Part shown: piece after piece, positions 2 through 23,941 of the stretch | How positions within the stretch are numbered: position 1 is the first letter of the stretch | Layout: each line of letters begins with the position of its first letter | Origin: Rhizaria sp. SCN 62-66 | Taxonomy: Eukaryota | Assembly (NCBI GenBank): GCA_001724265.1 | Contig: MEDY01000086.1 | Span: 62,001 to 85,941 of the forward strand | DNA: 23,941 nt | Direction of reading: 5' to 3' | The notes under the pieces: generated by a model | What the model saw: only the letters and a program-made list of their open reading frames with translations | Told to the model about the DNA's origin: nothing | Databases searched by the model: none | Translations under genes and position numbers: made by a program

Positions 2-3000
2 GACGAGCGCGACCTCATGCGCCGCATCATCATCGCGCTCGAACACACAGGCGTTCCGCCCGTCATTACTGCACACGGCGACGTCGTTGCAGGCCGCGTC
101 TTCGGCCACGCGGATCTTGGTCAGGCCGCCTACCTGGCGGAAAGTCAAGCCACGTCTATGAATGCGAACACTTACGCCGCCTCTGTGTCCGCGAACGTTG
201 CTGCGATGTTCAACCGAGGCGGTCTGGTCAAGCTAGCGGCGCCGTTCGCCACAGAGCCCCCGGCGGCTGCGGCGGGCTCTGCGAAGCGGGGAGCCGCGCT
301 TGCCGCGGCTGCTACTGCGGAGGCCGAGGCTGAGGCCGAAGCCGAGGCTGCCGCCGCTGCTGCTGATGCTGCGAACGAGGCTGACTACGATGACGACAAC
401 AATAATGATAGCGATGAGAGTGGTGCTTACTACAACGCGAGTAACGGCCATAGCAGCGCCGGCGACGGGAGCGATGGCGAGTATTACTACAACAGCCACG
501 GCCGTCACACCGGCACGGCCACTGCGTTGGGCTCACTCACCATTGATTGTGGCGATGACGATCAGCACAACAGCGGTTTTAACTCTGCTAGTGACAACGA
601 CAATAGTAACAGCGCCTACGTCAGTGACAGCGACGCCGGTATTGCACCGGATGCTCGCAAAGTTAAGCCGCCGCGTGGCGCTCGTCCGTCACTCCAACAG
701 GGTGGCCGAGCCTCCCACAGTCGCAGCTCGAGCTTGAGCTCTGACGTTCACAGCAATCACCACGACGGCGACACTAGTTTCTCCGGGAACGGTGACCACA
801 ACGACGTCTATCTTTCCCCGCAGCAACAATACCAACGTCAACTCTTCAGTAACAACGCTCGTAGCAGTCACACTCAGAACCAGACTCAAACCCATAGCCA
901 GAGCACCAGTCAGTCTCAGGCGCCGACTCAGGGTCAGACCCAGACTGGGCCCACGTGGCACCTGCTGCCGCCGCACGTCGCCGGCGAGTTGGCCCTGCTC
1001 CGCGCGTACGTGCGCCTGTTATCGCACTCGCATGAGTTGCACCACCTGCAGGACGAGCTGGCCACCGCCGGGACCGGTGCGGACGCCTCGGTGTCGTACT
1101 TCGGTGACGTGTCGCTGCATGCGTTCAAGCTCGTCGTCTCCTATAGCACGGGCAATGCGAAGCTGCTGGAGTCGTTTCTCCCGCAGGCCTTCACGCCCGC
1201 CGCGGCGAACACCGCGCCCGCCAACACTCGCGCGAGCAGTAGCACGAGTGCGAGTGCAGTACAGGCGCAAGCGCAGTCGCAACATCAACAAACCGCAGCA
1301 ACAGCAGCAGCAGCAGCAGCAGCAGCTGATGATGACGGCGTTATGAACAGCAAGACCGCGTCTCTGTACAACTTCGAGGTCGCGCCGCGGTCCGCGCTGT
1401 CATTCCTGCGCACCACCACGAGCACCGCGCTGGCGCCCTACGCCGCCGCCGCGCTGCGCGCCGCCACCTCGGCGCTGCTCAACATTAACTCGGCCGCGCT
1501 CACGGTTGCGCCGTTGCGCGTGCGCCACAGCCTCGCCGCGTCGCAGGCATTTCAGGCCCAGGTCGCGCGCCACTACGGCATCGCGCTCGCGGCGAACTTA
1601 CATCGGATTCTCGGCGCTGCGGAAGTCTTCGGCAATCTGGGCGGACTCACTGACGCGCTCATCAACGCATTCATGGACTATTTCTCGGAACCCGTCATCG
1701 CGGTCTCGGACTCGGCACGCGCGGCGCCGACTACCCTCGCCGTCCCGCTCGCAGTCGCGCGCGGCTTGACTTCCGGTCTCGCCCACGGCCACCGCGCGCT
1801 GGTGCAGCACATCGTCTTCGGGGTCGCCAACACCATCGCGCGCACGACGACGTCCCTGGCCAAGGGCACTGCGGCGCTGACCGCCGCGCTGGGCGTGTAC
1901 TGTGAGCCCGACCCGGCCGAGCTCGAGGAGGCCGCGGCGCGCGGGCTCACGGTCGCGAACAACGCGGCCGGCGCTGCGGCGGCTCCTATGGGCGAGGCGG
2001 GGGCCGAGGGGTGGTGGTACCAGTCGGTCGGCGCGGGACAGGGCGTGGCGCTTGCCGTGGCGCCGTGGCTGCTGCGGGCTCTGGTGCCGGTGGCATATGT
2101 CCTCGCACCAGACACTGACGACGACAACACTTCGAATCCTGCCGGCAGCATTGCCAACACGGACCTGATTGGTAACAATGCCGCTGCACAGTTAGAACAG
2201 CAGCAGCAGCAGCAGCAAGGTGATAGTAACAGTGTTCCTGTCGCTGCTCGTAATAGCAGTGAGAGCACGACGAAGGGGATTCTGTATCGCATCGGTCTGC
2301 TGTTGCGTACGTTCATCAATGAACACAGCAACAACACCACCAACACGAATATTGCGCACTCGAATGCTTCTTCTGTTGCCCCGAATTCCGCCAACAATGC
2401 TTTGACTACTACAGCTCTCGTCAACAACCCTTACACGGTTGACTACCCCACTTACCCGGGTAAGTACCCCTGGCGCGGCCTACGCTCCCACGTGCTCATG
2501 CTGCTCACTCTGCCCCCGCTCGGCGCTCTCAACACGCTCAGCCGCGCCGCCCGCGCCGTCGCCCGCTACTCTGACCCGGTCTCTCTGTCGCCTACGCACC
2601 GACCCGTGGCGCCCGTGCGGCCGCCGCGGCTACTGCACCTGGGCCAGCTGCTGCTGCCTTCGCAGTACTACCCTGGCTTTGTGCGGGACGTCGTTGCGCA
2701 GTACCTTGCGCAGAACCCCGGCCAGCGCTTTGTGACGTACGCGCTCAGCGAAGGGGTAAGCTTCGGAGCGCGGATGCTCGTGCTGATCACAACGGCAAAG
2801 CTGCTGGTGTTTACGGTTGAGCTCGAGTGTGACCCGCCGTCGACAGCCTCTGTGCGCGTCACGAACGAGGGCGGTAGCACGAGGAGCAACGCAGCGAACG
2901 TTACTGACTCGAGCGGTGGTGTCAACGGCAACGACGCGAGTTTAAATGCAGGCGGTGATAACAGTCACGCGAACTCAAGCTCTAGCGCGAATGACCCAAG

Positions 3001-4891
3001 TGCCCCCTCAGACTCCATCAAGGCTGGCTCCAGCGGCTCCGTTGGAGGGAATGGTGTGCACAACAGCGGTGGCAACGGCTTTAGCAGTTGGCGCGCTTTC
3101 CTGTTTGGCTCCACGTTCCTCTCACGCGCTAAGTACAGCAGCAGCACCAGCAGCACCAGCGGCACCAACGCCAGGGCGGCGGGCGGCGGCCAAACCAAGA
3201 GCAAGACGACCGTCGTCAAGCGCATCGCGCTCCCAACCTCTGTTGCGGCGACGACTGCGGCGCTGCTGGCCACCGTGCGTCGTATTGCGGACGCTAGCCG
3301 CAACAGCAGCGGCAACAACAGTGGCAGGCGTTACTACTCGTACAAGCAAGCCGGTGCCGCCAAGAGTGGCGCTGCCAATGTGGACGCAAATCCTGGCGGG
3401 TTTAGCCCCACTGCTGGCGCTGCTGCTTCTGCGAATACTCGTTGCAGCAGCACTGTGGTCAGCGAATGCGACGGCGGGCACTGCTGCAGTCACGACTCCG
3501 CGCTCCGGCCCATCAAGCTTGAGCAAGTTTGGTCTGCGATCATCCAGTTCAACAACAACAATAGAAACAACAACAGCACCACCAACATCACGTTTGCTAC
3601 CCGCAATCGCGCCACTCGCTCCCACGGGCCTGCCGCCGCTCTTACCGCATCAAGCGCGTCGCACCACCGCAGCTCCCGGGGCGGCACTCGCGTGGTGCTC
3701 TCCCTGGCCGGCCCCGGCGCCGGCACGGGCGCTCTGGCGCGGCTGCGCGCGCTGGTTACGGCCAACACCGTCTCCCGCGCGCGCACACACACGCACAGCG
3801 CCGACGCCGCCGCCTTCGCTTCGGCCTATGCGCGCGCCGCCGCGACTCAAGTGCTTGCGCGTATCGCCGCCTACAAAGCCGCCGCGGCCGCCAAGGCCGC
3901 GCGCGCGGCGGCGCTTGTCGAGGACACGCCGGCCGCCGCGGGGCCCGCTGCTGCCGCAGCCGCCGCGGCCGCCGCAGCCGCCTCCGCGAACGCCGAGGCC
4001 GCGGCCGCGCTGGAGCAGGCGTTCATCACGGGCGCGGCGCGCGCGGCTGCGGTGAAGCGGCGCCTGCTGGCGAGCTACTGCAACACCACGCCCACGGTCA
4101 CCGCGGTGACAATGCCGACGCTGGAGACGCTCGCGGCGGAGCTGGTGCGCAGTCACAGTCACATGCATGCGCACACCAGTGGGGGCAGCAGCCACCAGTA
4201 TCAAGACTCGCTGCTTGTCGGTGTCCCGAAACACGTTTCTGCTGCGCTCGTCTCTGCATTAACGCTGCCCGCTGCCGCGCCTGCGCCTGTGCCTGTGCCG
4301 GCCCCCGCGGCTGCCGCAGCGGCCGCCGCGCCCGCCGCCGCGGCTGCTGCCGCGGCTGCCGCAGCGTCCATCAACGGCGTCTCCGCTGCGACGGCGACTG
4401 CGGCTGCCGCTGCCGCTGCCAGCGCCGTCGTGGCCGCCGTCACCGACGCCGCATCCGCGCACGCCAGCGTGGGCGAACTGCTGTCGTCGCTGCACCACAC
4501 AGTGCGCACCAGCGGCGGTGGCGGCGTCGGCAACGGCGCGGGCGCCAGTGTGCTGCTCGCCGCCGCGCGCCGCGTTGTGCTGGTGCACGAGTTCGACCTC
4601 AAAACCATCGCGGGTTTCGCAGCCAGGCCCGCGGCGCTGCGGCTGAACCTGCGCATGGAGCCCGGATTCGTGTACAACGACAAGAAGATGAAGAAAGAGC
4701 TCATGCGGCGCGCCGAGGCTGCGGGCGTAAGCAGCCGCGTCGCGCTGAGCCACAAGATCGTGCTGCAGCCGGGCGGCGTCGTGGTCGAGAACTTTGTCGA
4801 GGTGGAGCTCGCGTGCCCGCTGCCTGCCGAGACGATCCGTGAGGTAGGCCGCTGTGTCGCCTTCATCAAGGACAACGCCGGGGTGATCTAA
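2..4891 (+). CDS. VPS13: VPS13-family lipid transfer protein, C-terminal part (5'-truncated by the window; no intron seen)
   Basis: Frame open from base 2 to TAA at 4889-4891, followed by AT-rich sequence. Segments match the VPS13 C-terminal/ATG2_C region: YFGDVSLHAFKLVVSY, LNINSAALTVAPL...VARHYGIALAANLHRILGAAEVFGNLGGL...FMDYFSEP, GLAHGHRALVQHIVFGVANTIARTTTSLAKG, RGL...LLTLPPLGALNTLSRAARAV, RPPR, then a PH-like end. Recognised from motifs by eye. Confidence 0.85.
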   Translation, partial: DERDLMRRIIIALEHTGVPPVITAHGDVVAGRVFGHADLGQAAYLAESQATSMNANTYAASVSANVAAMFNRGGLVKLAAPFATEPPAAAAGSAKRGAALAAAATAEAEAEAEAEAAAAAADAANEADYDDDNNNDSDESGAYYNASNGHSSAGDGSDGEYYYNSHGRHTGTATALGSLTIDCGDDDQHNSGFNSASDNDNSNSAYVSDSDAGIAPDARKVKPPRGARPSLQQGGRASHSRSSSLSSDVHSNHHDGDTSFSGNGDHNDVYLSPQQQYQRQLFSNNARSSHTQNQTQTHSQSTSQSQAPTQGQTQTGPTWHLLPPHVAGELALLRAYVRLLSHSHELHHLQDELATAGTGADASVSYFGDVSLHAFKLVVSYSTGNAKLLESFLPQAFTPAAANTAPANTRASSSTSASAVQAQAQSQHQQTAATAAAAAAAADDDGVMNSKTASLYNFEVAPRSALSFLRTTTSTALAPYAAAALRAATSALLNINSAALTVAPLRVRHSLAASQAFQAQVARHYGIALAANLHRILGAAEVFGNLGGLTDALINAFMDYFSEPVIAVSDSARAAPTTLAVPLAVARGLTSGLAHGHRALVQHIVFGVANTIARTTTSLAKGTAALTAALGVYCEPDPAELEEAAARGLTVANNAAGAAAAPMGEAGAEGWWYQSVGAGQGVALAVAPWLLRALVPVAYVLAPDTDDDNTSNPAGSIANTDLIGNNAAAQLEQQQQQQQGDSNSVPVAARNSSESTTKGILYRIGLLLRTFINEHSNNTTNTNIAHSNASSVAPNSANNALTTTALVNNPYTVDYPTYPGKYPWRGLRSHVLMLLTLPPLGALNTLSRAARAVARYSDPVSLSPTHRPVAPVRPPRLLHLGQLLLPSQYYPGFVRDVVAQYLAQNPGQRFVTYALSEGVSFGARMLVLITTAKLLVFTVELECDPPSTASVRVTNEGGSTRSNAANVTDSSGGVNGNDASLNAGGDNSHANSSSSANDPSAPSDSIKAGSSGSVGGNGVHNSGGNGFSSWRAFLFGSTFLSRAKYSSSTSSTSGTNARAAGGGQTKSKTTVVKRIALPTSVAATTAALLATVRRIADASRNSSGNNSGRRYYSYKQAGAAKSGAANVDANPGGFSPTAGAAASANTRCSSTVVSECDGGHCCSHDSALRPIKLEQVWSAIIQFNNNNRNNNSTTNITFATRNRATRSHGPAAALTASSASHHRSSRGGTRVVLSLAGPGAGTGALARLRALVTANTVSRARTHTHSADAAAFASAYARAAATQVLARIAAYKAAAAAKAARAAALVEDTPAAAGPAAAAAAAAAAAASANAEAAAALEQAFITGAARAAAVKRRLLASYCNTTPTVTAVTMPTLETLAAELVRSHSHMHAHTSGGSSHQYQDSLLVGVPKHVSAALVSALTLPAAAPAPVPVPAPAAAAAAAAPAAAAAAAAAAASINGVSAATATAAAAAAASAVVAAVTDAASAHASVGELLSSLHHTVRTSGGGGVGNGAGASVLLAAARRVVLVHEFDLKTIAGFAARPAALRLNLRMEPGFVYNDKKMKKELMRRAEAAGVSSRVALSHKIVLQPGGVVVENFVEVELACPLPAETIREVGRCVAFIKDNAGVI

Positions 4892-5884: not shown

Positions 5885-6750
5885 TTAGAGCTTATAGACG
5901 ACAGAGACGCCGTCCGACAGTGGGAGCATGCACACCTCCACACGCTCGTCCTTGAAGATCTTCTCGTTGAGCGCCTTGATGGCCACCGTGGACGGACTCG
6001 ACTCGCGGCTCGTGTCGGCGCCGGCGGGCGCGTCGGGGTTCGAAGCCACGGAGCCGCCCATGAGGGTGTTGTCGACGACGACGATGCCGCCCTTGCGCAG
6101 AAGCTGCAGTGCAAGCTCGTAGTAGGCGTCATAGCCAGTCTTGTCGGCGTCCAGGAAGACGATGTCGACGGTGCCCGCGGCGCCGGCGTCAAGCAGCTGC
6201 TGCATCGACTGCGTCGCGGGCGCGACCTGGAGCTTGATCTTGTCTTCGACGCCGGCCTCGGCCCAGAAGGGCTTGCCCACCGCGGGGAACTCGCTGCTGA
6301 TGTCGAATGCGTGCACAACACCGTCAGCGGGCAGCGCGAGCGCGAAGGCAAGCGCAGTGAAGCCGGTGAAAACGCCCACCTCGACCACGGTCTTGGCGTT
6401 GGTAAGGCGCACGAGCATCTGCAGGAAGGACGCCGAGTCGAGCGGGGAGACCATGCCGGCGCAGGACGCAGAGACGTCGTTAGCGTACGTCTCGCGGTGC
6501 AGCGCGAGCAGGGCCGGGTGCGTGCGGCACGAAACCGAGATTAGGTAGTTGTGGAGATGCGGCGGGAGGCCGCGGCTAGGTGGAGATTGGAGAATAATGC
6601 GGTGAGAAAGGAATCGACATAGACGAAACAGGGTGAGATGATGTGTTCCAAATGCTGAAAGATATAGCAAGTTATACGCAGTGCAGAAGCAGTATGATAA
6701 AGAAATAATAAAGAATTAGTGTGAAAGTACCTTTTGCTGGGAATAGACAT
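5885..6750 (-). CDS. SAM-dependent O-methyltransferase, caffeoyl-CoA OMT / COMTD1-like (Methyltransf_3 type), 236 aa
   Basis: Exons 6750-6731 (MSIPSK) and 6575-5885; intron 6730-6576 GTACTT...CCTAG keeps the frame. Motifs VEVGVFTGFT, AFDIS, FLDADK, VVDNTL, MLPLSDGV. Stop TAA. Confidence 0.92.
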
Positions 6751-7477
6751 GAGTTTCACGAAGATACTCTGTGTAGACAGACAAAATGCAGAGAGATCAA
6801 AGGGGGGTCTTGACAGACGTCGATCGCTCGCGTGCCACAGGCCACTGTCTCGGACTTTGAGTTGTGCTGGAATTCACGCAATAGAACGCGATGTTGGTCA
6901 AATATAAGCTTGTCCACTGTTATTTTGAGTTATGGTGTATTGTGTCGATGTTCTATATCTTGCTTTGGAACAAAGTATGGGCTAGATCTGCCAAGATATT
7001 GGTATATGACATTGGGTTTTGATAAGATATGACGCGGATATCATCAGTTTAAACCTAAATAAGAATCTGATTTGGTTACATCTTAACGATTGGCGTAAGA
7101 AATCAAAAATTCAAACTAATATAACCAAGATAAAATGTAGTTTGAAGCGTGACTAGAGTCTGACCACGAACGGAAATGAGCTCAACGGCTAGAGCAGTCC
7201 AGAGAGACTACAACCCTCACTTTGCACTGCGTCTACGCCATCAATATATCGTCATTATGGAATTTTACAGCAAAAACCTCGTATTAATTTGTGTTTTTAA
7301 TCTTATATTTCTATTAAACTTTCACCGCTGACATTTACATCTCTAATAACGACAACCGAAGTCGTTACTCTTTTCAAACACAAATCTCTTCCTCGCGCCC
7401 CTGTGCCTCCCTCGCAGCCCCTCGTAGTCTTCCTCCGCAAGTGCATCCGCGGGCTCGCGACTGCTTCCTGTGGCAAG
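6751..7477. promoter_or_regulatory. Putative bidirectional promoter region (O-methyltransferase / kinesin)
   Basis: AT-rich ~730-bp gap between divergent start codons; contains a reverse CCAAT (CGATTGGCG, 7087-7095). Confidence 0.55.
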
Positions 7478-10400
7478 ATGTCATCTTCGTCCGCGATCAG
7501 CTCCGGCGTGCGCGTGCTGGTCCGCATCCGCCCTCTGCTGCCCTCGCTCTCCGAGACCGGCCGGCCTGTGAGCCACCTGCAGCCAGATGCCGGCGACGGC
7601 CGCTCGGTCTCGCTCCAGCTCAACAACACGTTGCACCAGTACACCTTCGACTCGGTCATGCCGCCCGCGGCGACCCAGAGTGACGTCTTCTACTCCGGCG
7701 GCATTGACTCGATGCTCGACTGTGTCGCCGCTGGTTACAGCGCGACCATATTCGCCTATGGCCAGACCGGAAGCGGCAAAACGCACACCATGGACGGTGT
7801 CGGCGCCTCCACGGGCTCAAACAGTGGCAGCGGTGGCGGCGTTGGTGGCGCAACTGCTGCAGCCAATCAAGGAGGTAATCACGGCGTGTCAGAGGCAAGT
7901 GGTGTAACGATCCGCTCGATCTACGCTTTGTACGATAAACTCGCATCGGATCCCAACAATATCCTGGGCAACAACAGTAATAATCCGAGCAGTGGTCAGG
8001 ATCCTCAGCAGCAGCCGCAGTACGGTGTCTCTGTGACGTGCTCTTTTGTTCAGATCTATCAAGAACATGTGTACGATCTCCTCTCAACATCTCTTTCCAT
8101 CTCGTCCTCCTCCTCGTCCTCGTCCTCGGCGAACACGATGGGGGAGGCGGGCGGCCCCAACAGCAACGGCAGTCTCAAGGTCCGATGGGCTCAGGGCCGC
8201 GACTTTTACGTCGACGGCTTAACTTCAAGCACCTGTTCGACGCCGCAACAGGCGATCGCATGCTTTCTCGCTGGGACGAAGCGGCGTGTTGTGGCGCAGC
8301 ATCGGCTGAACACGGAGTCGTCGCGCTCGCACTCGCTTTTTACGCTCACAGTAACGAAGACGCCGGTTAACGGCAACGGCAACGGCAACAGTAACACTGC
8401 TGCTGCTGCCGTGATTGCACCAGGGTCCGTTGCGCGACATCTGACACTGCAACTTCGGCAATATATATCATCGAAAAAATTTTGCGCGTTAAAAGTGTTG
8501 TATCTTGGGCTCGATTTTTTGTTATTTCAATCAGCCGCGATATAATCAATCATGGTCTAAACTATATCCTCGCGTGTTATCATTTAACACGATAGCCTAA
8601 CCTCACTTACGATCCTCCTCCGACTTGCTTTGTTGTTTGCCCTTTTCAACTCTAAACTCCCCTCAGCGCCGTTGTCTCAAAGCTGACCCTGGTTGACCTT
8701 GCCGGCTCCGAGCGCAACGCCCAGACCGGTGCCACGGGCAAGCTGCTCAGCCAGGCCATCGGCATCAACCGGTCACTCTTCGTGCTGCGCAAAGTCATCA
8801 AGGCTCTCGCCACGGGCGGCAGCAGCAACACCAGCAGTAAGAGTGCGAGCGCGAACAGCGCCGTGCACGTGCCGTACCGTGACTCGACGCTGACTCGCTT
8901 GTTGCAACACTCCCTAGGCGGCAACTGTTTGACCCTCATGATCGCCTGTCTGGCCCCCTTAGACGCGTATCAGGAGGAGAATCTAAGTACCCTGAACTAC
9001 GCCGCGCTGACGACGAAGATCGTCAACAGGGCCACGGTTGGCGAGGACCCGCGGGCGGCGCTTATTCGCCAGCTCCGCGCTGAAAACCAGGTACGCGTGA
9101 CCTAGCGAACCATCGCATAACTCAAAACACTAGAACAGAGAGTGAACTGCATCTATCAAGCCTATAGTCAGTAATCTATTACTGACTCTATTCTGAACAA
9201 ATCATAACCATAGCATATATTTCAAATGAGTTTTTGCTTATTCACTGCTTTTGATCAAAATAATCTCACGTTTTATTCTGTGAATCTTTGTTTTTTGTTT
9301 TGTTTGTCTTCATAGACGTTGAAAGACACTCTGGCCCGAGCCAAGAGGCTCTTCATCATGGCTGGCTTAGTCAATACGGCCCCCGGTGCGGCGTCATCCT
9401 TATCGTCGCAGAATGTAAGCACCTCGGGTCCGAACGTAAGTGCCCTTCTGGGCTCAGTCTCCTGGGGCGACATCGAGACGGGCGCGTGGACGGGGGCTTC
9501 GACTCTGGCGAACCAAAGTCAGGCCGCGCTCCAACTGCAGCAGCAGCAGCAAAGCCAAGCCGCCTCGGGCCCTCACAGCGGCAATCCGAGCAGCGCTAAC
9601 TCTGCCGCTGCCGCCGCTGCTGCCGGCGGCGGTCTGAGTGGACGCGACTCGTTGCTGCTGCAACAGAGGCTGGTGGCGACTGTGGGCATGGCCCAGGCTC
9701 TGATGTCCGAGAACACAGAGCTGCGGGACAGGCTGGCGCAGGCGGAGGCCGAAGCGGAGGCTGTGGGCGACGATAACGCTGAGCTGCAGTATGAAAACAG
9801 CGACTTGCGCGAGAAAATCGACTTCCTTGAAGCTGTTTTGCTCGAAGGCAACAGCAACAACAACAACAATGGTAACACCACTGATGGCAGTCCTAGCACT
9901 CTTGACAGCGTCCTCAGTGCCCTTACTCTCTCGAACAGCAACGGCGGCAATAGCGCCAACGCTCATGCGAACGCGCACTCGAGAGCTGCTGCGATCGCGC
10001 TCACCAACAACAACAACAATGACCCGACTGCTGCTGGTATTCCCAGCGACGCGGCTGCCGCCGCCGCCGCCGCCGCCCGCGCCGAAGCGGCCGCGCTGCG
10101 CGACCTCGTGCTGCAGTCGCGCTTTGAAGCGCAGCGTGAGCACAAGCGGGCAGCTCAGCTTGCGGCTCAGCTCGCTAAGCTGCTCCAACAACAGGGCGGG
10201 GGCACAGGTACCCCCATGGGTTCTGGCGGCTCCGGCGGGGGCGGTCTGCGCAAGAGCGGCACAGGCTCCAGGGCTCAGTCTAACACTGGCTACGGCTCTG
10301 GATCCGGCGGTGGCGCTGGCGCGGGAGGCTTTGACCCGAGCCGGCTGGGCATGTCCGTGACCCGCCGCGGTGGCGCGCCCGTGGCGGCCACCGCAGGCAC

Positions 10401-10873
10401 CTACGCCGCTGTGGCCGGCGGCAAAAGCAGTCTCGGCGGTGGCGGCGGCGGCGGTGGCGGTGGCAAGATGAGTGTGAAGCAGCATAAGAAGCTTGTGAAG
10501 CAGCAAAGCAAGGCTGGGAGTGGCGGAAACAGGCGCGTCGTCGTCGCGCACACGGGCGAGAGCGCTGGCAGCTACAACAACAACAAAGCGCGGATCACGG
10601 GTGTCACGGGTTCTGGGACTGGGAGCGGCGGTACTAACAACAACAAGGCTAATATGCGTGACAATAGCGTCGGCTACGGCGATATCAACCCGTTCGCGAG
10701 CCAGCAGGCGTGGCAGGAGCAGCAGCAGCAACACCAGTATCAACCGCAGTCTCAACAACAGCAGCCGCCGCCGCAGCAGCAGCAATTTCAGGGACAGCAA
10801 CAGCAGCAGCAGCAGTATGCGGCATGGGTGTAGCAGCAGCGCCAGCTTGCCTGGGCTCAATACGAGCAGCAGA

Positions 10874-10918
<45 letters not shown>

Positions 10919-11160
10919 TGCAACAGGGCTCTCGTATTCCTATCATTCGGCATGATAACAGCAACTATGCGGGGCAGCGGCAGCATCAGCAGATGCAGCC
11001 GCAGCAACAGCCTTCGCAACAACTGCAACAGCAACAGCAGCAGCAGCAGCAACAACAGCAGTATTATCATCATCACCAGCAACAACAGCATCAACAGCAG
11101 AACGCAAATCAACTGCAGCAGATGTACTATCAGCAACAGCAGCAGCAGCCACGGCAATGA
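7478..11160 (+). CDS. Kinesin motor protein (KIF12/kinesin-16-like) with coiled coil and Gly/Gln-rich tail; 962 aa if TAG 10831-10833 is a stop, 1071 aa if read to TGA 11158-11160
   Basis: Exons 7478-8424, 8667-9090, 9316-11160. Motifs VRVLVRIRP, AYGQTGSGKT (P-loop), NTESSRSH (switch I), LVDLAGSER (switch II), HVPYRDSTLTRLLQHSLGGN. LKVRWAQGRDFYVDGL resembles KIF12-type motors; the subfamily call is less certain than the family call. Confidence 0.93.
10876..10917 (+). repeat. (CAG)14 perfect trinucleotide repeat, poly-Gln in the kinesin frame, downstream of the internal TAG
   Basis: Read directly from the sequence. Confidence 0.95.
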
Positions 11161-11678: not shown

Positions 11679-13040
11679 ATGGCCACAGCTCCCGCTCTGA
11701 CCGCCAACGTTCTTCTTGTCGGTACGCATATTACACTGACTTTATAACGCTTCGCTCCTCTTGTACCAGCTGATTTAAGCTCTGTCTACATTCTCCTCTC
11801 CTCTCTTGATCAATCTCTAAACGCTGCTGTTGTTTCCTCTTCGTTTTGCGTTGCCACGGTGTTGTTCCGACCCCGCAGGCCCCGCCAAGGCCGGCAAGTC
11901 TACCCTTGCCCGCGTTTATCACGGCCGCCCCTACTCCAAGGTCTACGAAATGGTACGTAACCCCACAACACAGCCTACTACGCAAACGGCTTTCGCTACT
12001 CACTGTTGCCACACTCGTACACACTCGCACTCACTGCCTCACTCACACTCTCTCTGTGTCGTTCTGCTGCCTTTTGCAGACCGAGGGCGTGGAGGTTCTC
12101 AACTCCCCCGTCAAGGTCGACGGCACCACGGTCAACCTCATGGTCTTTGACTGCGGCGGCGACACCATCTACGCCGACATGAAGAAACACGTCGTACGTC
12201 GTAACTACAATACGCAGCAAACTACTGTCATAATCGGAACATATCACGCTTACAACTTAGTTCATCAGTTTATGTACTTGTTATTATATTATATTTAAAT
12301 CTAAACCTGTTATGAGTACATCCTCTTAGTGTGTTTATGGCTGTATTTTGCCTCACATGAATCTCTCCCATTCTTCCGTGGTCACGACAATCGCTGTTGT
12401 CATGTTGTCATCTTCCATCTCCCCAGGCGCCCCAAGCGAGCGCCATCGTTGCCTGCTTTGACCTCACCAGCAGCGACTCGCTGCGCGCCGCCCTCGCCCA
12501 GGCCCAGGAGGCCCTCCGTCTTGCCAACACAAGCTCTAGCTCCAGCTCCAATGCCAGTGTCAGTGCCAGTGCGGTGGGCGCTAAGCCGCTGGGGCTGCTA
12601 GTGGGCTGCAAGAACGACCTGCGCGACGTGGCCGAGGTCACGCCGGAGCAGGCGCAACAGGTACGACCATTACGCTTGATCTTGAGCCCCAAGGCGTGTA
12701 ACAATGCTCACAATAACAACAACGCTTTTTAAGAGGAATCCTAACGTGTATATATCGAGTTATAATATTAAAAAGTTAGTATATAACTGTATTGGCACTT
12801 GAATTATCTATATATCGTGCTTTTATCTCGTCAAAGCCTCACTCCATGGATATACCCCGCATTTCATTTCGTGGACTGTGCTTTTAGGCGGCCGACTCAC
12901 TGGGCCTGAGCCTCTTCTGGGCCTCGGCGCAGGACAGCCAGGGCGTGGAGGCGCCCTTCGCGGCGCTGGCCGAGGCCGTGAAGCAGCGCTACCTGGCCTC
13001 CGTGGCCGCCGCCAAGAGCGTCTTCGGCGACGGCCAGTGA
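11679..13040 (+). CDS. IFT27: Intraflagellar transport protein 27 (Rab-like 4 small GTPase), 205 aa
   Basis: Exons 11679-11721, 11879-11952, 12080-12193, 12427-12660, 12888-13040, all GT-AG and in frame. G1 GPAKAGKS, YEMTEGVE, G3 FDCGG, G4 GCKND, G5 WASA. The VEAPF...LA...Y C-terminal helix and absence of a prenylation cysteine fit IFT27. Stop TGA. Confidence 0.85.
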
Positions 13041-13173
13041 GAGGGCCGTTGTGACGTCGCAACAAGCTAATAACCAGTTAGCTTAACGAAGTGCGAGTCT
13101 CAATCCCACTGGTGACTGTTGTGTGACCTCCGGTGACTCCCCTCAGAAGGCGTGAGGCGTAAAGCGGGTGCTC

Positions 13174-13706: not shown

Positions 13707-14236
13707 AATGCACCTGAACACAACGGTATGTCAAGCTATAGCACAACTGACAGATGTTTGACGGCGTATGAAGCGGTGAACAAATCGATGGCTTGCAGAC
13801 AATGACCGTGAGCAGATGCAGGGGGCCGAAAAAGGAAAAGGAATTTACGTTTTCCATGATTCACGGCCCAGCGATGCGCGGAGCTTTGAGCTACTTATAT
13901 GCGTTCCCATGTCCATCGCAGCCTCTGATATTGCTGTGAATAACACTGCCCTCTCGTGGAAAATATCCTTTTCAAATTGTGATCTGTTCCCGATCCGTCT
14001 GAATCCCGCACGAGCGTGTCCCTTAAATCCCGACCCCCACTCACTCACATTCTCACCTTCGTTCATATTTGCCGCCCTCTTCTGCTTGACTGCGTCCCGC
14101 TGTCGCTTTCGCGTGCTTTTCTCCGCGTTGCCGCACACTTCGTGTGCATCTTTTCTCCTCCTGCTTGGTCTCTGTCGCGGTTGCTCCCGTTGCCCATCGC
14201 TCTTTGCCACCTTCGTCGCACTCTTCAGTTAGTCGT
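13707..14236. promoter_or_regulatory. Putative bidirectional promoter region (small coiled-coil gene / RPLP2)
   Basis: 530-bp gap between divergent start codons; long pyrimidine-rich tract on the RPLP2 side. Confidence 0.55.
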
Positions 14237-14587
14237 ATGAAGCACATTGCCGCCTACCTCCTCGCCGCCATCGCCGGCAACGAGAAGCCCACCGCCGCCG
14301 ACGTCACCAAGATCCTCGACTCCGTTGGCATCCAGGCCGACGAGGCCCGCCTCAACAAGCTCATCGAGGAGCTCAAGGGCAAGTCCCTCGACGAGGTCCT
14401 TGCTGCTGGTGAGGCCCTCCTCGCCACCGCCCCCGCTGCTGGCGCCGCCAAGTCTGGCTCTGCCAGTGGCTCCGCGAGCGGCTCTGGCTCCGGCTCTGGC
14501 TCTGGCTCCGCCTCTGGCTCTGGCTCTTCCTCCTCGTCTGGCTCCGACGACGGCAAGGGCAAGAAGGCTGGCTTCTCCCTCTTCTAA
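14237..14587 (+). CDS. RPLP2: 60S ribosomal stalk protein P2 with atypical C-terminus, 116 aa
   Basis: MKHIAAYLLA...PTAADVTKILDSVGIQADEARLNKLIEELKGKSLDEVLAAG is the P2 N-terminal domain. Strong C-ending codon bias as expected for a highly expressed gene. Ends GFSLF-TAA. Confidence 0.95.
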   Translation: MKHIAAYLLAAIAGNEKPTAADVTKILDSVGIQADEARLNKLIEELKGKSLDEVLAAGEALLATAPAAGAAKSGSASGSASGSGSGSGSGSASGSGSSSSSGSDDGKGKKAGFSLF

Positions 14588-15122: not shown

Positions 15123-18100
15123 TCATTGTTGCTGGTTACTGAGCGACTGCTGCAGCAAATCGTGCCACTCCTGCACCGACAACGCCCCGCCAGCACTCCC
15201 ACTTGCACTCACACTCGCACTAGCGCTGCTACTGCTGCGGCTGTTGTTGTTGCTGCTGCTGCTGTTGTCATTGCCGCGCTCGTTAGCAATCATGCCCATA
15301 AAGAACTCTGCAACGCGAGCATAGTCGCCCCCGCCGCCACCGCCGCTGGCCGGGTGACCGTGGGCACCGCGAGTACCGCTGGTGCCCTGGCCCTGCTGCT
15401 GCTGTGCGTCTAAGTAGGCTGAGAAGGCCTCGGCAGCCGTCTGCGTCTCTGCCTCCTCCTCCTCGTCGTCGTCGCCGTCGTCGTTAGCGTCGTCACCTTT
15501 GATGTCAGTGCGAGCATTACCCCGGCCTCGGCGGCCGCCGCTACTGCGAATGCTGGCGTGACTGCCGCCGCCGCCGCCGACGACGCCGCCGTTGTTGTTG
15601 TTCTTACGGCCGATGGCGTTGAGTTGGCGCATGAACGCGCGCATCGCCGCCCCGTGAGGGTCAGTCCCATCATCGTCACCGTGAGTGTAACCAGTGTCAT
15701 CGGCGTCGTCGTCGTCGCCGTCGCCGTCAGCAGCGGCGGCGGAGGCCTTGGCCCTGGCGGCGTTGGCCCGGGCTGCGGAGATCACAGCGGAGCCGCCGCC
15801 GACCCACTTTGCCATGGCGTTTGCCTTGGACTTGGCGTTGGCAGCAGAGATGTCGGAGCCGGTGTACCCAACGTAGCCATCCTCGACGTCGTCGACATTA
15901 TTGTTCTTACCGTAGCTATCACCGTTGTCATCATCGTCGTCGTCGCTACTAAGGTCGTAGCCACTGCTCTCTTCCCCTGCCTCATCGTCGTCATCGTCAC
16001 CGTCGTCTTCGTCGTCACCGCCATCGCCACCATTAGCGGCATGGTTATGAACATCAGCATTACCTTGCTGCTGTTGCAGCTGCTTGTGCTGCCGCAGCCA
16101 TTGCTTCCTGAACTCCCTCTCTTGCTCCTCCTTCTCCGCCGCAGCCTGGACCTGCTTCGTGAACAGCATCGTTTCGGTCAGCGCCCGTTGCGAGGCCGCG
16201 TCCAGCTGCCGCGGCACGAACGGCAAACGCGCAGGCTCTTCAAGTTTAGCCGCGTCGGCGTCGGGAAGCTTAGCCGCGTCTGAGTTCGCGTTGTGGCTGT
16301 CAGTCATGGCTGAACTCTGAGCGTGAACGTGGTTCTTTGCAGTGAAGCTTGTGGTTGGAGTTGTTTGGAAAGCAGCGAAATCCCGGTCGATGTCAACAAT
16401 GCCGTTGAGAGTCCTGTTGCTGACGGCTGCGGTGGCAGCAACAAACAGTGCCCTATCATCGTCATCATCGTCATCGTCGTTGTTGTCTTCATCGCCGTTG
16501 TTGACAACGGTGATCTTTGCACTGCGAGTGATGTGACTTCGACCAGGAGTACTGCCATTTGCAGCATTCGCAGCAGCCGCAGAAGCAGCAGGGGCAGCAG
16601 CAGCGGCAGCGGCAGTGGCGGCGGCAGTGAGCCTAGAGAGAGCTTGTGTGAACTCGGCGTCAGCCTCGGCGTCAGCCTTGGTCTTGGCCTTCGTCTTTTG
16701 CGTCGTGACCCCCGCGTTGGCCTTGCTAGCGCTGTGAGAGGCGCCAGCTGACGTGTAAGTAGCAGTGTTGGGCTCTAAAGGGGGAGGACCCGCGTCGTCG
16801 TCATCGTCACCGTCATTGTCGCCCATCGCAGAGTGGGCCTTGCGAGTCTTGGTCTCGGCCTCCGCCTCCGCCTCGGCCTCTGCCTCTGCCCGGGCCCGTG
16901 CAACCTCGTTCGCAGAGTCCGCAAAGGGGTCGTCTTCGGCGGCCAGAGACGACGACATGTTGCTGAACGCCTTAATTAAAGCCGCCTTGGCTTCGGCATC
17001 GAGCCATGCAGGGGGCTCGTTTGACTGAGCCTTAGACTTAGACTTCGCGGACTTGCCCTTGCCCTTAAACTCGTCCTCGTCGTCTAAGGGGCTCTTAGTG
17101 ACGTCAGCGCCGTCCTTAAGCCACTTGTTGACCGTGGCCAGCAGGTCGCTCGGAAGCTTCGTCTCACTCTCACGACCATTGCCGTTATCGCTATCACTCG
17201 CGTCGTCGTCGATGTCGCCGTCGCCGGTCATCAAATTGTGGCGGCGGGGCTTCCGCGTGCTCTTAGCAGCGGTCTTCGCTGTCTTCGTCTTCGAAGCAGC
17301 CTTAGACGCGCTCTCGGCAGCATCATTGCGCTCGCTGTCACTGTCACCGCCGCCGTCGTCATTGCTGTTCTGACGCCTTCGCTCCTCGCGCCGCTCAGCT
17401 CGCCGCTGCGCACGGTCGGCGGCGGCCACGGCGGCCCTCAGCGCTGCCGCCGCAGCTGGCGGCAGCGCCCGCGAGGCCGCCGCCACCAGCGTCTCCCCGG
17501 GGGGCAGCCAGGACCGCGGCAGACGGGCCTGGGCGCGCGCCATGGCCGCGGCCATAGCGGCCTCATCAACATCATCAGCATCAGCAGCAGCAGCAGCAGC
17601 GGCGGCGGCGGCGCCAGTGTCTGCGATGTCAGTCATCGCGTCTGCATGAGCATTCGGGGCCGCACTAGAGTCTGTAGCAAAGGTGTTGTTGTTGTTGATG
17701 TCCACAAAAGGAGCGAATGTGGGCATTGGCGGCGCAAGCATTGGACCGAAAAAGGACGGGTCACTGTAAAAAAAGTTGTCACCGAACTCGTTGTTGCTAA
17801 CCGCGTTAGCAGTGTTGTTGTTGCTGTTAATAATGATGCCAGCAGCAGCGGCAATAGCAGGGTCAATGGTACTAAGATCCACAGCAGCAGCGCTGGTGTT
17901 ATTCGAGAACACCATGGAAGGCAGCTGGAAGGGAGTTGAGATAAGGGTCGTGCGACTCGTGATATCAGAGTCAACTGCTGCAGCAGAACTGCTAGCGTTA
18001 ACGGTGTCGTGAGACAACATAGCAACAGCAGCGTTACTTTGTTGTTGGCTTAACAGACTGCCTTGTTGGCTCAAGAGAAGCTTCGTATCAGCGTCAAACT

Positions 18101-20414
18101 CAGGCTTTGGCAGCTGCGGCAGCTTCATGGCCATCAACACGTCATACGACGGAGTCAAAACGAAGCCAATATCACTCGTAGCAGCGTTCGCAGCGTTAGG
18201 AGCAGTCACATTCGCCTCAGTCTTGACAGTTGTCTTTCGGCTCTTGTTCGCGTTGATCGAAGCATTATTGGCAACCGCGTCGCTAAAGGCCTTGCTATAG
18301 TTATTGTCGGTGATGGTGAAGGCCTCAGTCACCGCAGCGGCGGCCTCGGCGTCCCGCTTCGCCTCCCCCTCCAGGCCAAACAACTGGAACCGCTTCTGCT
18401 GCCACTCCGCAGCGGCGTCCGGGGTGACAAGCGCAGTCTCGGCCAAAGTACGCCCCTCGGGCAAAACAGCGCCCTCAGCATCAGCATCAGCATCAGCATC
18501 AGCGTCAGCGTTCGCGTCAGCGTTCGCGCGAACGTGCGCACTCTTCGTGTGGGCCTTGGCAGCGGCGCGCGTCTTGGCGGACTCCGCGGCCTTGGCCTTC
18601 ATATGCTGCGCGATTTGCTCCGTGAGCGCAGCAATCGTCTCGGCCTGCTCGCTCCCGGAGACCGATGGCGGCTTAAATTCCGTGTAAGTACCACTTAGAC
18701 CGCCGTCCTGGTCGTCCTCCAACGCAGTCGCGTCGGCGCGGATCGCGTCATGAGGGTTTTCGCTATTTTCGCTGTTGTTGTTTTTGTTTTTCTTGGCGCG
18801 GACAAGACGCGGATTAGTCGCAGCGTCGGCGGCGGCGGCCGCCGCAAGAGCAATGGCCAGTGCCTCGGCCTTGGTCTCAGCCTCAGTCTTGACAATCCCG
18901 GCGCTCGCACTCGCAAAGTCGGTGTCATCGGCCACAGTCGTGTTTGAGCTCGAACTAGAGCTACGACTGTTGTTGCTGCTGCTGCTGCTGGTGTTGTTGC
19001 TGTTGTTGTTGACGTTATTGTTGTTGACGCTGTTGACGCTTGCGACGGAAGGGAGGTAGTCGTCGTCGTCATCGTCGTCGTCGTTGCGACTGCTCTTGGC
19101 GCCCTTACCCTTGCTCCCACCGGCAGTCACCTTGCCGCCCGCACTGGTGCGGGTGCGACTGGAGCTCGAGCTGTTGGGGCTAGAGGCAGTCTTGGTGAAG
19201 TCAAACGCGGAAGCTGCTGCCTTTCGCTGTTGTTGCTGCTGTTGCTGCTGTTGCAGCAGCTCAGAGTCCTGGTGTTGCTTGTGCAGAGCCAAGACCTTCA
19301 TCGCCACTTCCCACTCGTCGGCGTCGTCTAAGGAGGTGCTTACACCGACACTGGCACTCGCGCTGTAAGGGGCGGTTGCTGCTGCTGCGGTGCTACTGAC
19401 ACCGAGGTTCGCGACGCCGTGCGCCATCATCCGCACACTTACATCGTCGTCTATGTAAGTACCAGCGCGGTAAGCAGTCTCGGCCTCAGCACCAGCCGCC
19501 GCCGCAGGCGCAAGGTCGTAGAGCGCGGCAGTGCCGTCCCGAGCCGCCTCGAGTGCGTCAGCCCACAGGCCGGCCTGGCGCGCGCTTACACCAGCTAAGG
19601 GCGCTCCGAGCCTGTGTAAGGGCGCGCCGAGCTGTGCATCGAGCTCGTTTTGAGCGGCGAGGAACGCGACGCCCGCGCGGGCCTGCTGCTCCTGCCGCTG
19701 CGCCGCCAGAGAAAGCACGCGGGCAGTCTGCGTCTCCGTCTCGGCATCCGTGTCGGTCATCGCGCCCGCCTTTGCAGGCGCAGGCTAGTTCGAGGTCGAG
19801 GTCGAGGTCGTGTGGGAGCTGCTCGCGAGGGAGGCCAACAGGGGATTAGAGCGCTGGCGCGGCACGAAGTTGAAGTCGACGGCATCGCCATCGTCGTCGC
19901 CGTCGTCGCCGTAGCCGCCGCCGAGCGCAGTCAGGCTGGCAGCATCAGCGTCGGCGTCCGGACTGGGGTTCCAGTCGCCGTTGCCATTGCGGGTACGGGC
20001 AAAGGCGTTCGTGTTGTTCGCGGCGGCAGCGGCAGCGGCGTCAGCAGAGGCGCGGGCGGCGGCGCGTGAGGCTGAGAAGGCGTCGCTGTTGTTGCTGCTG
20101 GTGCTGACAATGTTGCTGAATGTCACCCTCTTCGTCGTTGATGTAGCAGGCTTGCTGCTGCCGGTGGAGGCGCCAAAGCTAGGAGCGGAAGCAAAGCCGC
20201 TAGCGCTAAGGGGAGAGCTAGAGCTGGCGCCAAAGGCGAAGCTTGACTGGGTTGCAGCAGTAGTGCCAAATCCAGCGCCAGCAGTTTGGCTGACGCCGAA
20301 GGCAGTGCTTGCCGGGAGACTACTGCTGGCTGCGGCGGAGGGCTCCGGCTTGACTGCGGGGGCCGGGCGGGGCTCGGGCTTGACTGCCGGGCCGCTCCGG
20401 GGGTGGCCGCTCAT
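15123..20414 (-). CDS. Large low-complexity, acidic/Ala-rich hypothetical protein; 1763 aa if the in-frame TAG at 19787-19785 is decoded, otherwise 1545 aa from ATG 19760
   Basis: ORFs 20414-19785 and 19760-15123 share one frame and are separated only by TAG plus 8 sense codons. GC and codon style are uniform across the junction. Stop TGA. No recognisable domain. Confidence 0.75.
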
Positions 20415-21132
20415 GCAATCAGTCGCAGCAGCACGGTGCAGTAACGCGGCAGAGTGATAAGGGCGCGCGCAGAGAAGGGAGCGGGGGCGGGGACTGGGGC
20501 GGCTTGGTGATGAACGCAAGCGAGGGTAGTCTGCGGGATAGACGTACCTGCCTTGCCTCTAGACAAGTTATAACCAAAAAAAGAAAAAGAAATTATGAGT
20601 TCTAGTCAATGAACACTGTTTTGATTTCACAGAGGTTGCTTAAGAGTTGATACTTGCGAGGAATGACGTGCCACCGAGGCCGATGCGATTGGCGCGGTTC
20701 TCTGAAGTCGCGAAAAATCGGAACTGCGGACTCATAGAGTGGCGCCATCGCTCCGTCAGTGGCACTATGACTACGCTCCTATGATACAATAGCATGTATT
20801 CTATATTTGTTCGTTTACATTGTTTGAACTAGGGATTATCTATACCACTTCCGAGTACCAATTCGCCCTCGCCTCCGCATTCCTGTCTGACACCCCGCCA
20901 GCAAACACCACAAACTGTTCGACCACGCTCGACCACTATATTATATCAACATTTTATTGTCATATCTCACACGCCAATTACGTAGTCGATTCGTTTATTG
21001 CTTTCTTTTGTCACAACTCCTCTTTGCTCCACTGAAAACAGACAACTCCACTCTTCCTCTCCCTCAGCCCCAGGTCACATCGGCACACCAGCAGCAGCAG
21101 CAGCAGCGCTTCGCAGCCCAAGCCTCAGCAGC
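20415..21132. promoter_or_regulatory. Putative bidirectional promoter region (large protein / 280-aa protein)
   Basis: ~720-bp gap between divergent start codons; contains CGATTGGCG (20686-20694) and TGACGTG. Confidence 0.5.
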
Positions 21133-23817: not shown

Positions 23818-23941
23818 TTAGACGCCGAAGAGCTTCTGAGCGGGGCCCATGGTGGACTTGATGTACACGCGCTTGACCTGCTGCCAGTTCTTGGGGAGGA
23901 GGGAGACGAAGTAGTTGATGGCGAGGACGACGTTGGCAATG
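23818..23941 (-). CDS. RPL10A: 60S ribosomal protein L10a (uL1), C-terminal fragment
   Basis: Reverse strand reads [43 protein letters not shown]; the NWQ...YIKSTMG signature is uL1. Absent from the supplied ORF track. Confidence 0.95.

What the first reader, a model, noticed from the sequence alone, without database searches (positions are those of the whole stretch)
19758..20414. Second, independent in-frame TAG joining a 209-codon ORF to the 1545-codon ORF
Seen: the minus strand reads ...ACC TCG ACC TCG AAC TAG CCT GCG CCT GCA AAG GCG GGC GCG ATG ACC GAC..., i.e. TSTSN*PAPAKAGAMTD. Both sides are in one frame, with identical coding composition and no AT-rich intergenic or intron-like gap. 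VKPE motifs upstream match VKTE motifs downstream. Inference: this is one 1763-aa protein containing a decoded UAG. Two TAG interruptions and no internal TAA/TGA in roughly 5600 codons favours a codon-specific effect over random decay, but n=2 and TAG would be a very rare codon. Both TAGs are followed by C, the leakiest +4 context, so read-through is an alternative to full reassignment.
Basis: partly seen in the sequence, partly recalled or inferred. Interest (0 to 1): 0.75.

Follow-up and report, generated by a model that had tools for sequence, protein, structure and literature searches.

The report
Wastewater protist reads UAG as glutamate
The 'stop' codon splitting this long gene is most likely not a stop: this uncultured wastewater protist appears to read UAG as glutamate, using its own matching tRNA, while UAA and UGA still end its proteins, and it uses UAG so rarely that the code change may be young or unfinished.

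Summary
The in-frame TAG at 19787-19785 (-) is real. It joins 209 and 1553 codons into one 1763-codon frame and is identical in another study's DNA. It is one case of a genome-wide trait of a 34.9-Mb rhizarian (probably cercozoan) assembly.

After coding-like sequence the frame runs on past 27 of 58 TAGs, but only 1 of 97 TAAs and 1 of 90 TGAs. None of 15 hand-read gene ends is TAG. The genome holds a tRNA with a CTA anticodon, closest to its tRNA-Glu. Its eRF1 gene carries an in-frame TAG at a column that is Glu/Asp in 116 of 117 homologues.

Best reading: UAG = Glu, with UAA and UGA as stops. The +4 base is not C-biased, so context read-through is unlikely. The residue rests on the tRNA and two informative columns; a neighbour test ranked Lys above Glu. 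TAG is very rare (about 0.3% of Glu codons), and T32S is neutral in human eRF1, so UAG may still compete with termination. I found no UAG=Glu-only nuclear code in the papers I could read; one relevant paper was not held.

The parts
19788..20414 (-). N-terminal 209 codons (ATG 20414): low-complexity, two VKPE motifs and a short run of FG-like dipeptides
   Evidence: residues 1-420 have no homologue among 1.84 billion representatives; no usable Atlas hit
19785..19787 (-). in-frame TAG, codon 210; inferred to be read as Glu
   Evidence: identical in X3 (DNA, other study) and X5 (RNA library) contigs; meaning inferred from the genome-wide tests
15123..19784 (-). remaining 1553 codons plus TGA; internal ATG at 19760; two VKTE motifs; Ala/Asp/Asn/Ser-rich, probably largely disordered (inferred)
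   Evidence: no Pfam family over its cut-off; no usable Atlas hit
10831..10833 (+). second in-frame TAG, in the last exon of the kinesin gene (context WV-TAG-QQRQ; EQQRQ recurs ten residues later); the frame ends at TGA 11158-11160
   Evidence: kinesin motor matches at C86:69523-71018
20531..20547 (-). donor-like GTACGT at 20547 with an AG 17 nt on; possible 5' UTR donor, not shown to be used
   Evidence: An intron from here to the TAG would be about 760 nt at GC 0.66, against 134-288 nt at GC 0.34-0.51 for four introns read by hand

Best explanation
The organism uses a variant nuclear code: UAG is decoded as glutamate, UAA and UGA terminate. A tRNA derived from tRNA-Glu, with anticodon CUA (G000:C84, about 76008-76080, -), pairs with UAG but not UAA. 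It is presumably charged by glutamyl-tRNA synthetase through its Glu-type acceptor stem and out-competes an altered eRF1 (T32S, M34V, G57S, T58K, L124M in human numbering). Ribosomes therefore insert Glu at codon 210 and make one 1763-aa low-complexity protein. Its function is unassigned; four VKxE motifs fit the recalled SUMO consensus and hint at a nuclear protein. SHOWN: the TAGs, their continuation in frame, their absence at checked gene ends, the tRNA gene, the eRF1 substitutions. INFERRED: charging with Glu, actual decoding, the effect of the eRF1 changes, a single mRNA. OPEN: whether decoding is complete or competes with termination.
For: (1) Frame continues past 27 of 58 TAG, 1 of 97 TAA, 1 of 90 TGA; in the 524-kb unselected sample 8 of 16, 0 of 37, 1 of 28. 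The most terminal-looking TAGs lay in introns, wrong frames or antisense frames when read by hand. (2) 15 gene ends: 11 TAA, 4 TGA, 0 TAG. (3) A CTA-anticodon tRNA shares its first five acceptor pairs and most of its T arm with tRNA-Glu(CTC). Identity is 47 of 73 to Glu(CTC), against 40 for the next type, 39 for Lys(CTT) and 33 and 29 for the two Gln tRNAs. It is followed by a T run, and its contig matches the genome's tetranucleotide signature, r = 0.90-0.92 against at most 0.63 for 30 foreign stretches. (4) eRF1, the only eRF1 found, has TAG at human Glu107: E 106, D 10 of 116 homologues and E in 75 of 78 covered loci. The gene is identical in a second assembly (L201). (5) UBE2J1-type E2 TAG column: D 71, E 21, S 11, T 9, N 5, G 2, M 1, Q 0, K 0 of 120. 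(6) Two TAGs inside an Ala-Glu repeat (L084). (7) 30 of 37 contexts favour E over Q, like GAG (80%) and unlike CAG (46%).
Against: Only two columns are informative for the residue, and the closest eRF1 relative (P0004, 84% identical) has Val there. Five kinase TAG columns are variable. The neighbour test ranked K, R, E; bootstrap best residue was K 589, R 144, E 85, Q 4 of 1000 (the set includes some wrong-frame sites). Some TAGs sit in Gln contexts: CAG runs in L069 and L133, a Gln-Ala repeat in L291, and a Gln column in a degenerate ubiquitin copy, L139. The genome-wide repeat test was inconclusive. [quoted passage not shown] One TAG (L102) could be terminal. No proteomics; RNA evidence is borderline.
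Confidence: 0.74

Rival explanations
1. UAG is a sense codon but gives another residue or a mixture (Gln or Lys): the A36 anticodon could be poorly read by GluRS and mischarged by GlnRS or LysRS.
For: TAGs in CAG runs and at a Gln column; neighbour test ranks K first; mischarging of amber suppressors by GlnRS/LysRS is known in bacteria (recalled, no call).
Against: The tRNA body is Glu-type. Q and K are 0 of 116 and 0 of 120 in the two informative columns. CAG to TAG is a common transition that unconstrained Gln runs would tolerate whatever TAG means (inference).
Confidence: 0.11
2. UAG is still mainly a stop. The in-frame TAGs are leaky-context read-through sites or recent nonsense alleles, and the CUA tRNA is a weak suppressor.
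For: TAG is about 0.34% of Glu-type codons (8 against 2338 GAG+GAA under one test). No exonic TAG in 54 kinesin, 18 dynein, 43 DEAD and 20 ABC matches. One tRNA gene found; T32S is neutral in human eRF1.
Against: A stop at residue 107 would remove the M and C domains of the only eRF1 found. No +4 C bias. No TAG at 15 gene ends. TAA and TGA do not interrupt frames. The window TAG and the eRF1 TAG are each identical in another assembly.
Confidence: 0.08
3. At this one site the TAG is a 3' splice acceptor (for example from the donor at 20547), or the 209- and 1545-codon ORFs are separate genes restarting at ATG 19760.
For: TAG acceptors occur in this genome and mimicked in-frame TAGs in dynein, DEAD and four kinase matches. 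A donor-like site and an ATG eight codons downstream exist. The Atlas holds the two pieces as separate predicted proteins (probably a standard-code gene call).
Against: The would-be intron is about 760 nt, GC 0.66 and coding-like throughout; the 90 nt after the TAG look nothing like a 3' UTR. RNA-library contigs 19472-19817 and 19795-20117 are ungapped, and no listed joint ends at this site (that list is cut).
Confidence: 0.05
4. Base-call or assembly error.
For: The genome is a metagenome assembly.
Against: Identical in contigs from two other studies (X3, X5); dozens of other TAGs show the same pattern.
Confidence: 0.01

Closest known systems
Rhizaria sp. exLh (Sainouroidea), UAG = Leu with UAA/UGA stop (Panek et al. 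2017, PMC5304391; passages and supplement rows seen)
   Same: A rhizarian with only UAG reassigned, and in-frame UAG also inside its eRF1 sequence.
   Different: Leu, not Glu. UAG is common there (11% and 30% of Leu codons in the two rows seen) against about 0.3% here. Its tRNA was only predicted. Its eRF1 keeps GTS and has L69A; here L69 is intact. AT-richer coding DNA.
Iotanema spirale (UAG = Gln), phyllopharyngean ciliates (UAG = Leu or Gln), Scotinosphaera (UAG = Ser) (PMC5304391, PMC9161772, PMC11687900; passages seen)
   Same: UAG-only stop-to-sense change; CUA tRNAs found in two ciliate MAGs; I. spirale also has Thr32 of the GTS loop changed (T32G).
   Different: Other residues and lineages. 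T32S here keeps the hydroxyl that T32G removes.
Oligohymenophorea sp. PL0344, UAG = Glu and UAA = Lys (McGowan et al. 2023, PMC10553269; passages seen)
   Same: UAG = Glu through tRNA-Glu-derived CUA tRNAs.
   Different: There UAA is also sense and 10 CUA tRNA genes exist. Here UAA is the commonest stop among hand-read ends and one CUA gene was found.
Blastocrithidia spp. and peritrich ciliates, UAR = Glu (PMC12153298, PMC11687900; passages seen)
   Same: tRNA-Glu(CUA) decodes UAG in Blastocrithidia.
   Different: Both UAA and UAG are reassigned there, UAG is 1.4-1.7% of codons in Blastocrithidia, and the change is linked to AT pressure. This genome has GC-rich coding DNA.
Plant eRF1-1 autoregulation by read-through and NMD (Nyiko et al. 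2017, PMC5397192; abstract seen)
   Same: eRF1 level could feed back on its own mRNA through a stop codon.
   Different: There it acts at the normal stop and 3' UTR; here the candidate is a UAG inside domain N. No regulation is shown here.

Membership tests
UAG-only nuclear stop-to-sense reassignment (exLh / Iotanema / phyllopharyngean type) | in-frame UAG in otherwise intact conserved genes | tested here: met
   eRF1, a UBE2J1-type E2, and 5 of 9 TAG-only kinase matches (4 dropped as likely acceptors)
UAG-only nuclear stop-to-sense reassignment (exLh / Iotanema / phyllopharyngean type) | UAA and UGA kept as stops, not as sense | tested here: met
   1 of 97 TAA and 1 of 90 TGA continue in frame; 11 TAA and 4 TGA at 15 gene ends
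UAG-only nuclear stop-to-sense reassignment (exLh / Iotanema / phyllopharyngean type) | UAG not used to terminate | tested here: inconclusive
   0 of 15 hand-read ends. Terminal-like automatic class: TAG 5, TAA 32, TGA 41; none of the 5 looked like a true end (3 read, 2 from the listing). One further site, L102, is ambiguous. Sample is under 3% of the genome.
UAG-only nuclear stop-to-sense reassignment (exLh / Iotanema / phyllopharyngean type) | cognate tRNA with CUA anticodon | tested here: met
   1 real tRNA among 8 pattern matches; Glu-type body
UAG-only nuclear stop-to-sense reassignment (exLh / Iotanema / phyllopharyngean type) | many UAGs at columns conserved for one residue | tested here: inconclusive
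   two informative columns, both acidic; neighbour and repeat tests did not single out Glu
UAG-only nuclear stop-to-sense reassignment (exLh / Iotanema / phyllopharyngean type) | eRF1 with reduced UAG recognition | not testable with these tools
   substitutions at five columns invariant in 116 of 116 homologues, but T32S is neutral in human eRF1; no paper on T58K or G57S found
UAG-only nuclear stop-to-sense reassignment (exLh / Iotanema / phyllopharyngean type) | proteomic proof of the inserted residue | not testable with these tools
   no proteome available
UAR = Glu codes (peritrichs, Blastocrithidia) and the PL0344 code | UAA also read as an amino acid | tested here: not met
   1 of 97 TAA continues in frame; TAA ends 11 of 15 genes
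Programmed stop-codon read-through | leaky context bias (+4 C) at a few genes while the codon stays a general stop | tested here: not met
   +4 C in 11 of 27, p = 0.21; TAG not found at checked gene ends
Context-dependent stop/sense codes (Condylostoma, Blastocrithidia UAA) | the same codon used internally as sense and at transcript ends as stop | tested here: inconclusive
   no convincing terminal TAG, but no transcript ends available and one ambiguous site
Pyrrolysine system | tRNA-Pyl with PylRS and PylBCD | not tested
   ARAGORN labels the tRNA 'Pyl' under the bacterial code; its body is Glu-like; PylRS was not searched

The most novel reading that the evidence does not exclude
The lineage is caught in an ambiguous intermediate. 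One tRNA-Glu(CUA) gene competes with an eRF1 that still recognises UAG, so UAG is avoided both as a stop and as a sense codon: it is rarer than the rarest standard codon and nearly absent from conserved domains. The UAG inside eRF1's own domain N then acts as a negative-feedback valve: more eRF1 means more premature termination on its own mRNA. That would be a eukaryotic counterpart of bacterial RF2 autoregulation (recalled) and a living test of the ambiguous-intermediate model of code change. Against it: with about 30 Glu codons in eRF1 and 0.34% TAG use, one TAG is expected by chance about 1 time in 10, and the closest relative has Val at that position.
Probability: 0.2. Interest if true: 0.92.

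Novelty: new variant of a known kind. Interest (0 to 1): 0.78.

Why it matters
UAA and UAG almost always change meaning together in nuclear genomes, and only a handful of UAG-only codes are reported (Leu, Gln, Ser). UAG = Glu with UAA and UGA kept as stops did not appear in the passages I read or in my six code-related searches. It would also be a second Rhizarian code change, with a different residue from exLh and with the tRNA gene in hand. UAG is unusually rare, the coding DNA is GC-rich, and a relative shares part of the eRF1 changes (P0004 has M34V and T58K but keeps T32 and G57). The clade could therefore order the steps of a code change and test codon capture against an ambiguous intermediate. 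The organism recurs in bioreactor and wastewater runs of several studies, so material is within reach. Standard gene callers split its genes at TAG, as the two separate Atlas records of this protein suggest.

Tried and rejected
Homologues of the protein itself: none for residues 1-420, no Pfam family over its cut-off, no usable Atlas hit for either piece.

Strain variation at the site: no covering contig showed another letter. X4 and X6 had no listed contig over the TAG, so no GAG/TAG polymorphism was seen.

TAGs dropped as intron acceptors or intron interior: both dynein ones, the DEAD one, the kinesin one in L185, four kinase ones at match starts (L150, L151, L155, L156) and two in kinase matches that also held TAA/TGA. 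Of three kinase matches with TAA/TGA only, two were read and lie in intron-like sequence; C178 was not read.

Genome-wide pattern [EKQ]-A-TAG-A-[EKQ]: 21 matches against 30 for the reversed control. Of 20 fetched, 18 were antisense or off-frame and 2 in frame, one K..E and one Q..Q; the 21st is the E..E site in L084. Inconclusive.

Neighbour-residue test: excludes Gln overall but ranks Lys first; held-out GAA sites were called E in only 97 of 300 draws, so it is weak. PDB alignments for two kinases were uninformative.

The apparent G29S in eRF1 is an artefact of intron phase and was discarded. The tRNA's folding energy does not beat shuffles (z = -1.18); the case for it rests on ARAGORN and the alignment. 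tRNA-Glu(TTC), GluRS, eRF3 and NMD genes were not examined.

A finer taxonomic placement was not reached: a one-gene FastTree puts the organism in a 9-sequence clade of unnamed sequences with no supported named sister (110 of 120 hits used). Earlier scan notes held nothing on this genome.

Full report
OBSERVATION. The minus strand carries one frame from ATG 20414 to TGA 15125-15123, broken only by TAG at 19787-19785: 209 codons, the TAG, then 1553 codons, 1763 residues in all. The stretch on both sides scores as coding in this frame only, and the 90 nt after the TAG are GC-rich and coding-like, unlike the DNA after true stops. A contig from a DNA run of another study matches 19407-20320 with no difference. 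A contig from a poly(A) RNA library matches 19472-19817 ungapped. The RNA contig has 30 letters 5' of the codon, at the edge of the tool's bridging rule, and that library also covers a stretch that looks intergenic (6780-7028), so transcription across the TAG is suggested, not shown. The protein has no detectable relative, so the residue at codon 210 cannot be read from orthologues.

ORGANISM. The window is the end of contig C86 of a 34.9-Mb, 714-contig assembly held by bioreactor and wastewater runs. Genes have GT-AG introns and GC-rich, low-complexity coding DNA. CCT-alpha's best named hits are Mataza, Lapot, Amorphochlora, Paulinella and Plasmodiophora. Ubiquitin starts MS-MQIF, which I recall as resembling the rhizarian ubiquitin insertion. 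A one-gene FastTree on 110 of 120 hits puts it in a clade of nine unnamed sequences with no supported named sister. Rhizaria is likely, Cercozoa probable, anything finer open.

GENOME-WIDE BEHAVIOUR OF TAG. I trained a codon model on 51 stretches (523,941 bases) and asked whether coding continues in frame after each stop triplet that follows coding-like sequence. It did for 8 of 16 TAG, 0 of 37 TAA and 1 of 28 TGA; control GAG gave 2037 of 2569. Over 196 loci plus the window the counts were 27 of 58, 1 of 97 and 1 of 90 (Fisher p = 1e-17). Of the 31 TAGs not continuing, 11 had a donor-like motif just upstream. The most terminal-looking ones read by hand were intronic, off-frame or antisense, apart from L102 (ambiguous) and L186 (apparently exonic). 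Fifteen gene ends read by hand are 11 TAA and 4 TGA. Several gene names there are my recognition by eye, two ends are not fixed by homology, and two assume the read-through. In-frame TAGs lie in eRF1, a UBE2J1-type E2 and 5 kinase domains among 142 matches. None was exonic in 54 kinesin, 18 dynein, 43 DEAD or 20 ABC matches (with 47, 52, 53, 99). TAG is about 0.34% of Glu-type codons, which by my estimate is several times rarer than ATA, the rarest standard codon (63 of about 100,000). The +4 base shows no C bias.

THE tRNA. A pattern for an intron-less CTA anticodon loop with a T loop gave 8 matches, one of them a tRNA (L041, contig C84). It shares the first five acceptor pairs and most of the T arm with tRNA-Glu(CTC). 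Among the 24 tRNA types compared it is closest to Glu(CTC): 47 of 73, next 40, Gln 33 and 29. It is followed by a T run. C84 has the genome's tetranucleotide signature and eukaryote-style coding frames either side of the tRNA. The family search scored only 63 of 506 tRNA candidates, so copy number and tRNA-Glu(TTC) are not established.

WHICH RESIDUE. For Glu: the tRNA; eRF1 column 107 (E 106, D 10 of 116; E 75 of 78 covered loci); the E2 column (D 71, E 21, no Q or K in 120); two TAGs in an Ala-Glu repeat; and 30 of 37 contexts favouring E over Q. Against: the nearest eRF1 relative has Val at that column; the same neighbour test ranks K and R above E; TAG also occurs in CAG runs and at a Gln column of a degenerate ubiquitin copy; and the genome-wide repeat test failed because 18 of 20 fetched matches were antisense or off-frame. 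I put Glu at about four in five, given that TAG is decoded.

eRF1. The only eRF1 found (the other family match looks like Pelota) differs from all 116 other homologues at T32S, M34V, G57S, T58K and L124M; K130Q is also unusual. The relative P0004 shares M34V and T58K but keeps T32 and G57. Thr32 is reported to bond to the G of UAG, and T32G marks I. spirale (PMC5304391, PMC9161772; passages). [quoted passage not shown] The sequence therefore does not show that eRF1 has lost UAG. The gene's own TAG is identical in a second assembly, L201, which may come from the same sample. Termination there would remove domains M and C, so UAG must be decoded at least part of the time unless another eRF1 was missed.

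HOW IT MOST LIKELY WORKS. The CUA tRNA reads UAG but not UAA, delivers Glu and wins over an altered eRF1; UAA and UGA end proteins. At the finding's site this gives one 1763-aa low-complexity protein. The rarity of TAG, its near absence from conserved domains and the mild eRF1 changes leave room for incomplete decoding. In that case the TAG inside eRF1 would form a feedback loop. That reading is bold: chance alone gives such a TAG about 1 time in 10.

COMPARISON AND NOVELTY. It works like the UAG-only codes of Rhizaria sp. exLh (Leu), I. spirale (Gln), phyllopharyngean ciliates (Leu, Gln) and Scotinosphaera (Ser), and uses the same kind of tRNA as PL0344 and Blastocrithidia (passages of PMC5304391, PMC11687900, PMC10553269, PMC12153298). 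It fails membership of the UAR = Glu and PL0344 codes because UAA is a stop. UAG = Glu with UAA and UGA as stops did not appear in those passages or in searches of a library that lacks most subscription journals. Panek et al. 2025 on non-canonical codes in Heterolobosea is cited in the library but not held. I recall, uncertainly, that it reports UAG reassignments, so it may hold a precedent for the code, though not for this lineage. Brown et al. 2015 was not held either and is cited only through Panek 2017. Of supplements I searched only those of PMC5304391; those of bioRxiv preprints were not available and could list further codes.

VERDICT. Observation confirmed; interpretation supported and extended. 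A new variant of a known kind: a probable UAG = Glu nuclear code in a rhizarian, with the tRNA identified and unusually low usage. Confidence 0.74 for the full statement, about 0.9 that UAG is decoded. Interest 0.78.

Noticed in passing
L007:1594-1596 (-), G000:C63 about 103463-103465: The eRF1 gene itself has an in-frame TAG in domain N and five substitutions at otherwise invariant columns (T32S, M34V, G57S, T58K, L124M).
   Followed up: yes
L041:1489-1561 (-), G000:C84: tRNA with CTA anticodon and Glu-type acceptor and T stems, A37/A38, followed by a T run.
   Followed up: yes
P0004 (JGI protein, 84% identical to G000 eRF1): A relative's eRF1 shares M34V and T58K but keeps T32 and G57 and has Val at the TAG column. 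Its code is unknown; it could be an earlier step.
   Followed up: partly
L006:1501-5945 (G000:C706): A very divergent SSU rRNA gene spanning about 4.4 kb with several insertions that look like group I introns by eye, one apparently long enough to carry an ORF. Its tetranucleotide signature does not match the bulk genome (r = 0.04; rDNA often differs), so bin membership is not shown.
   Followed up: no
L137, L138, L140-L144, L148: Ubiquitin genes seen are monomers starting MS-MQIF and ending RGG-HPQ-stop; no polyubiquitin junction in the 11 loci read (of 23 matches).
   Followed up: partly
L139:1-2100 (+), G000:C681: A ubiquitin domain inside a long frame with a duplicated upstream segment and a tail containing a GFIAEE motif (resembles phage tail-fibre chaperone domains, recalled). 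AT-richer, many C-to-T changes, and a TAG at a Gln column.
   Followed up: partly
window 2-4891 (+): An open frame of 1629 codons ending in TAA, no Pfam family. Part of it resembles a VPS13-type C-terminus by eye only.
   Followed up: no
window 20531-20547 (-): A 17-nt GT...AG stretch upstream of ATG 20414: a possible tiny 5' UTR intron or unused donor.
   Followed up: no
window 5885-6750 (-), 7479-11160 (+), about 11700-13050 (+), 13840-14570 (+), 23819-23941 (-): Neighbours: O-methyltransferase (Pfam PF01596), kinesin, and by eye an IFT27-like small GTPase, ribosomal protein P2 and the end of ribosomal protein L10a. All end in TAA or TGA.
   Followed up: partly
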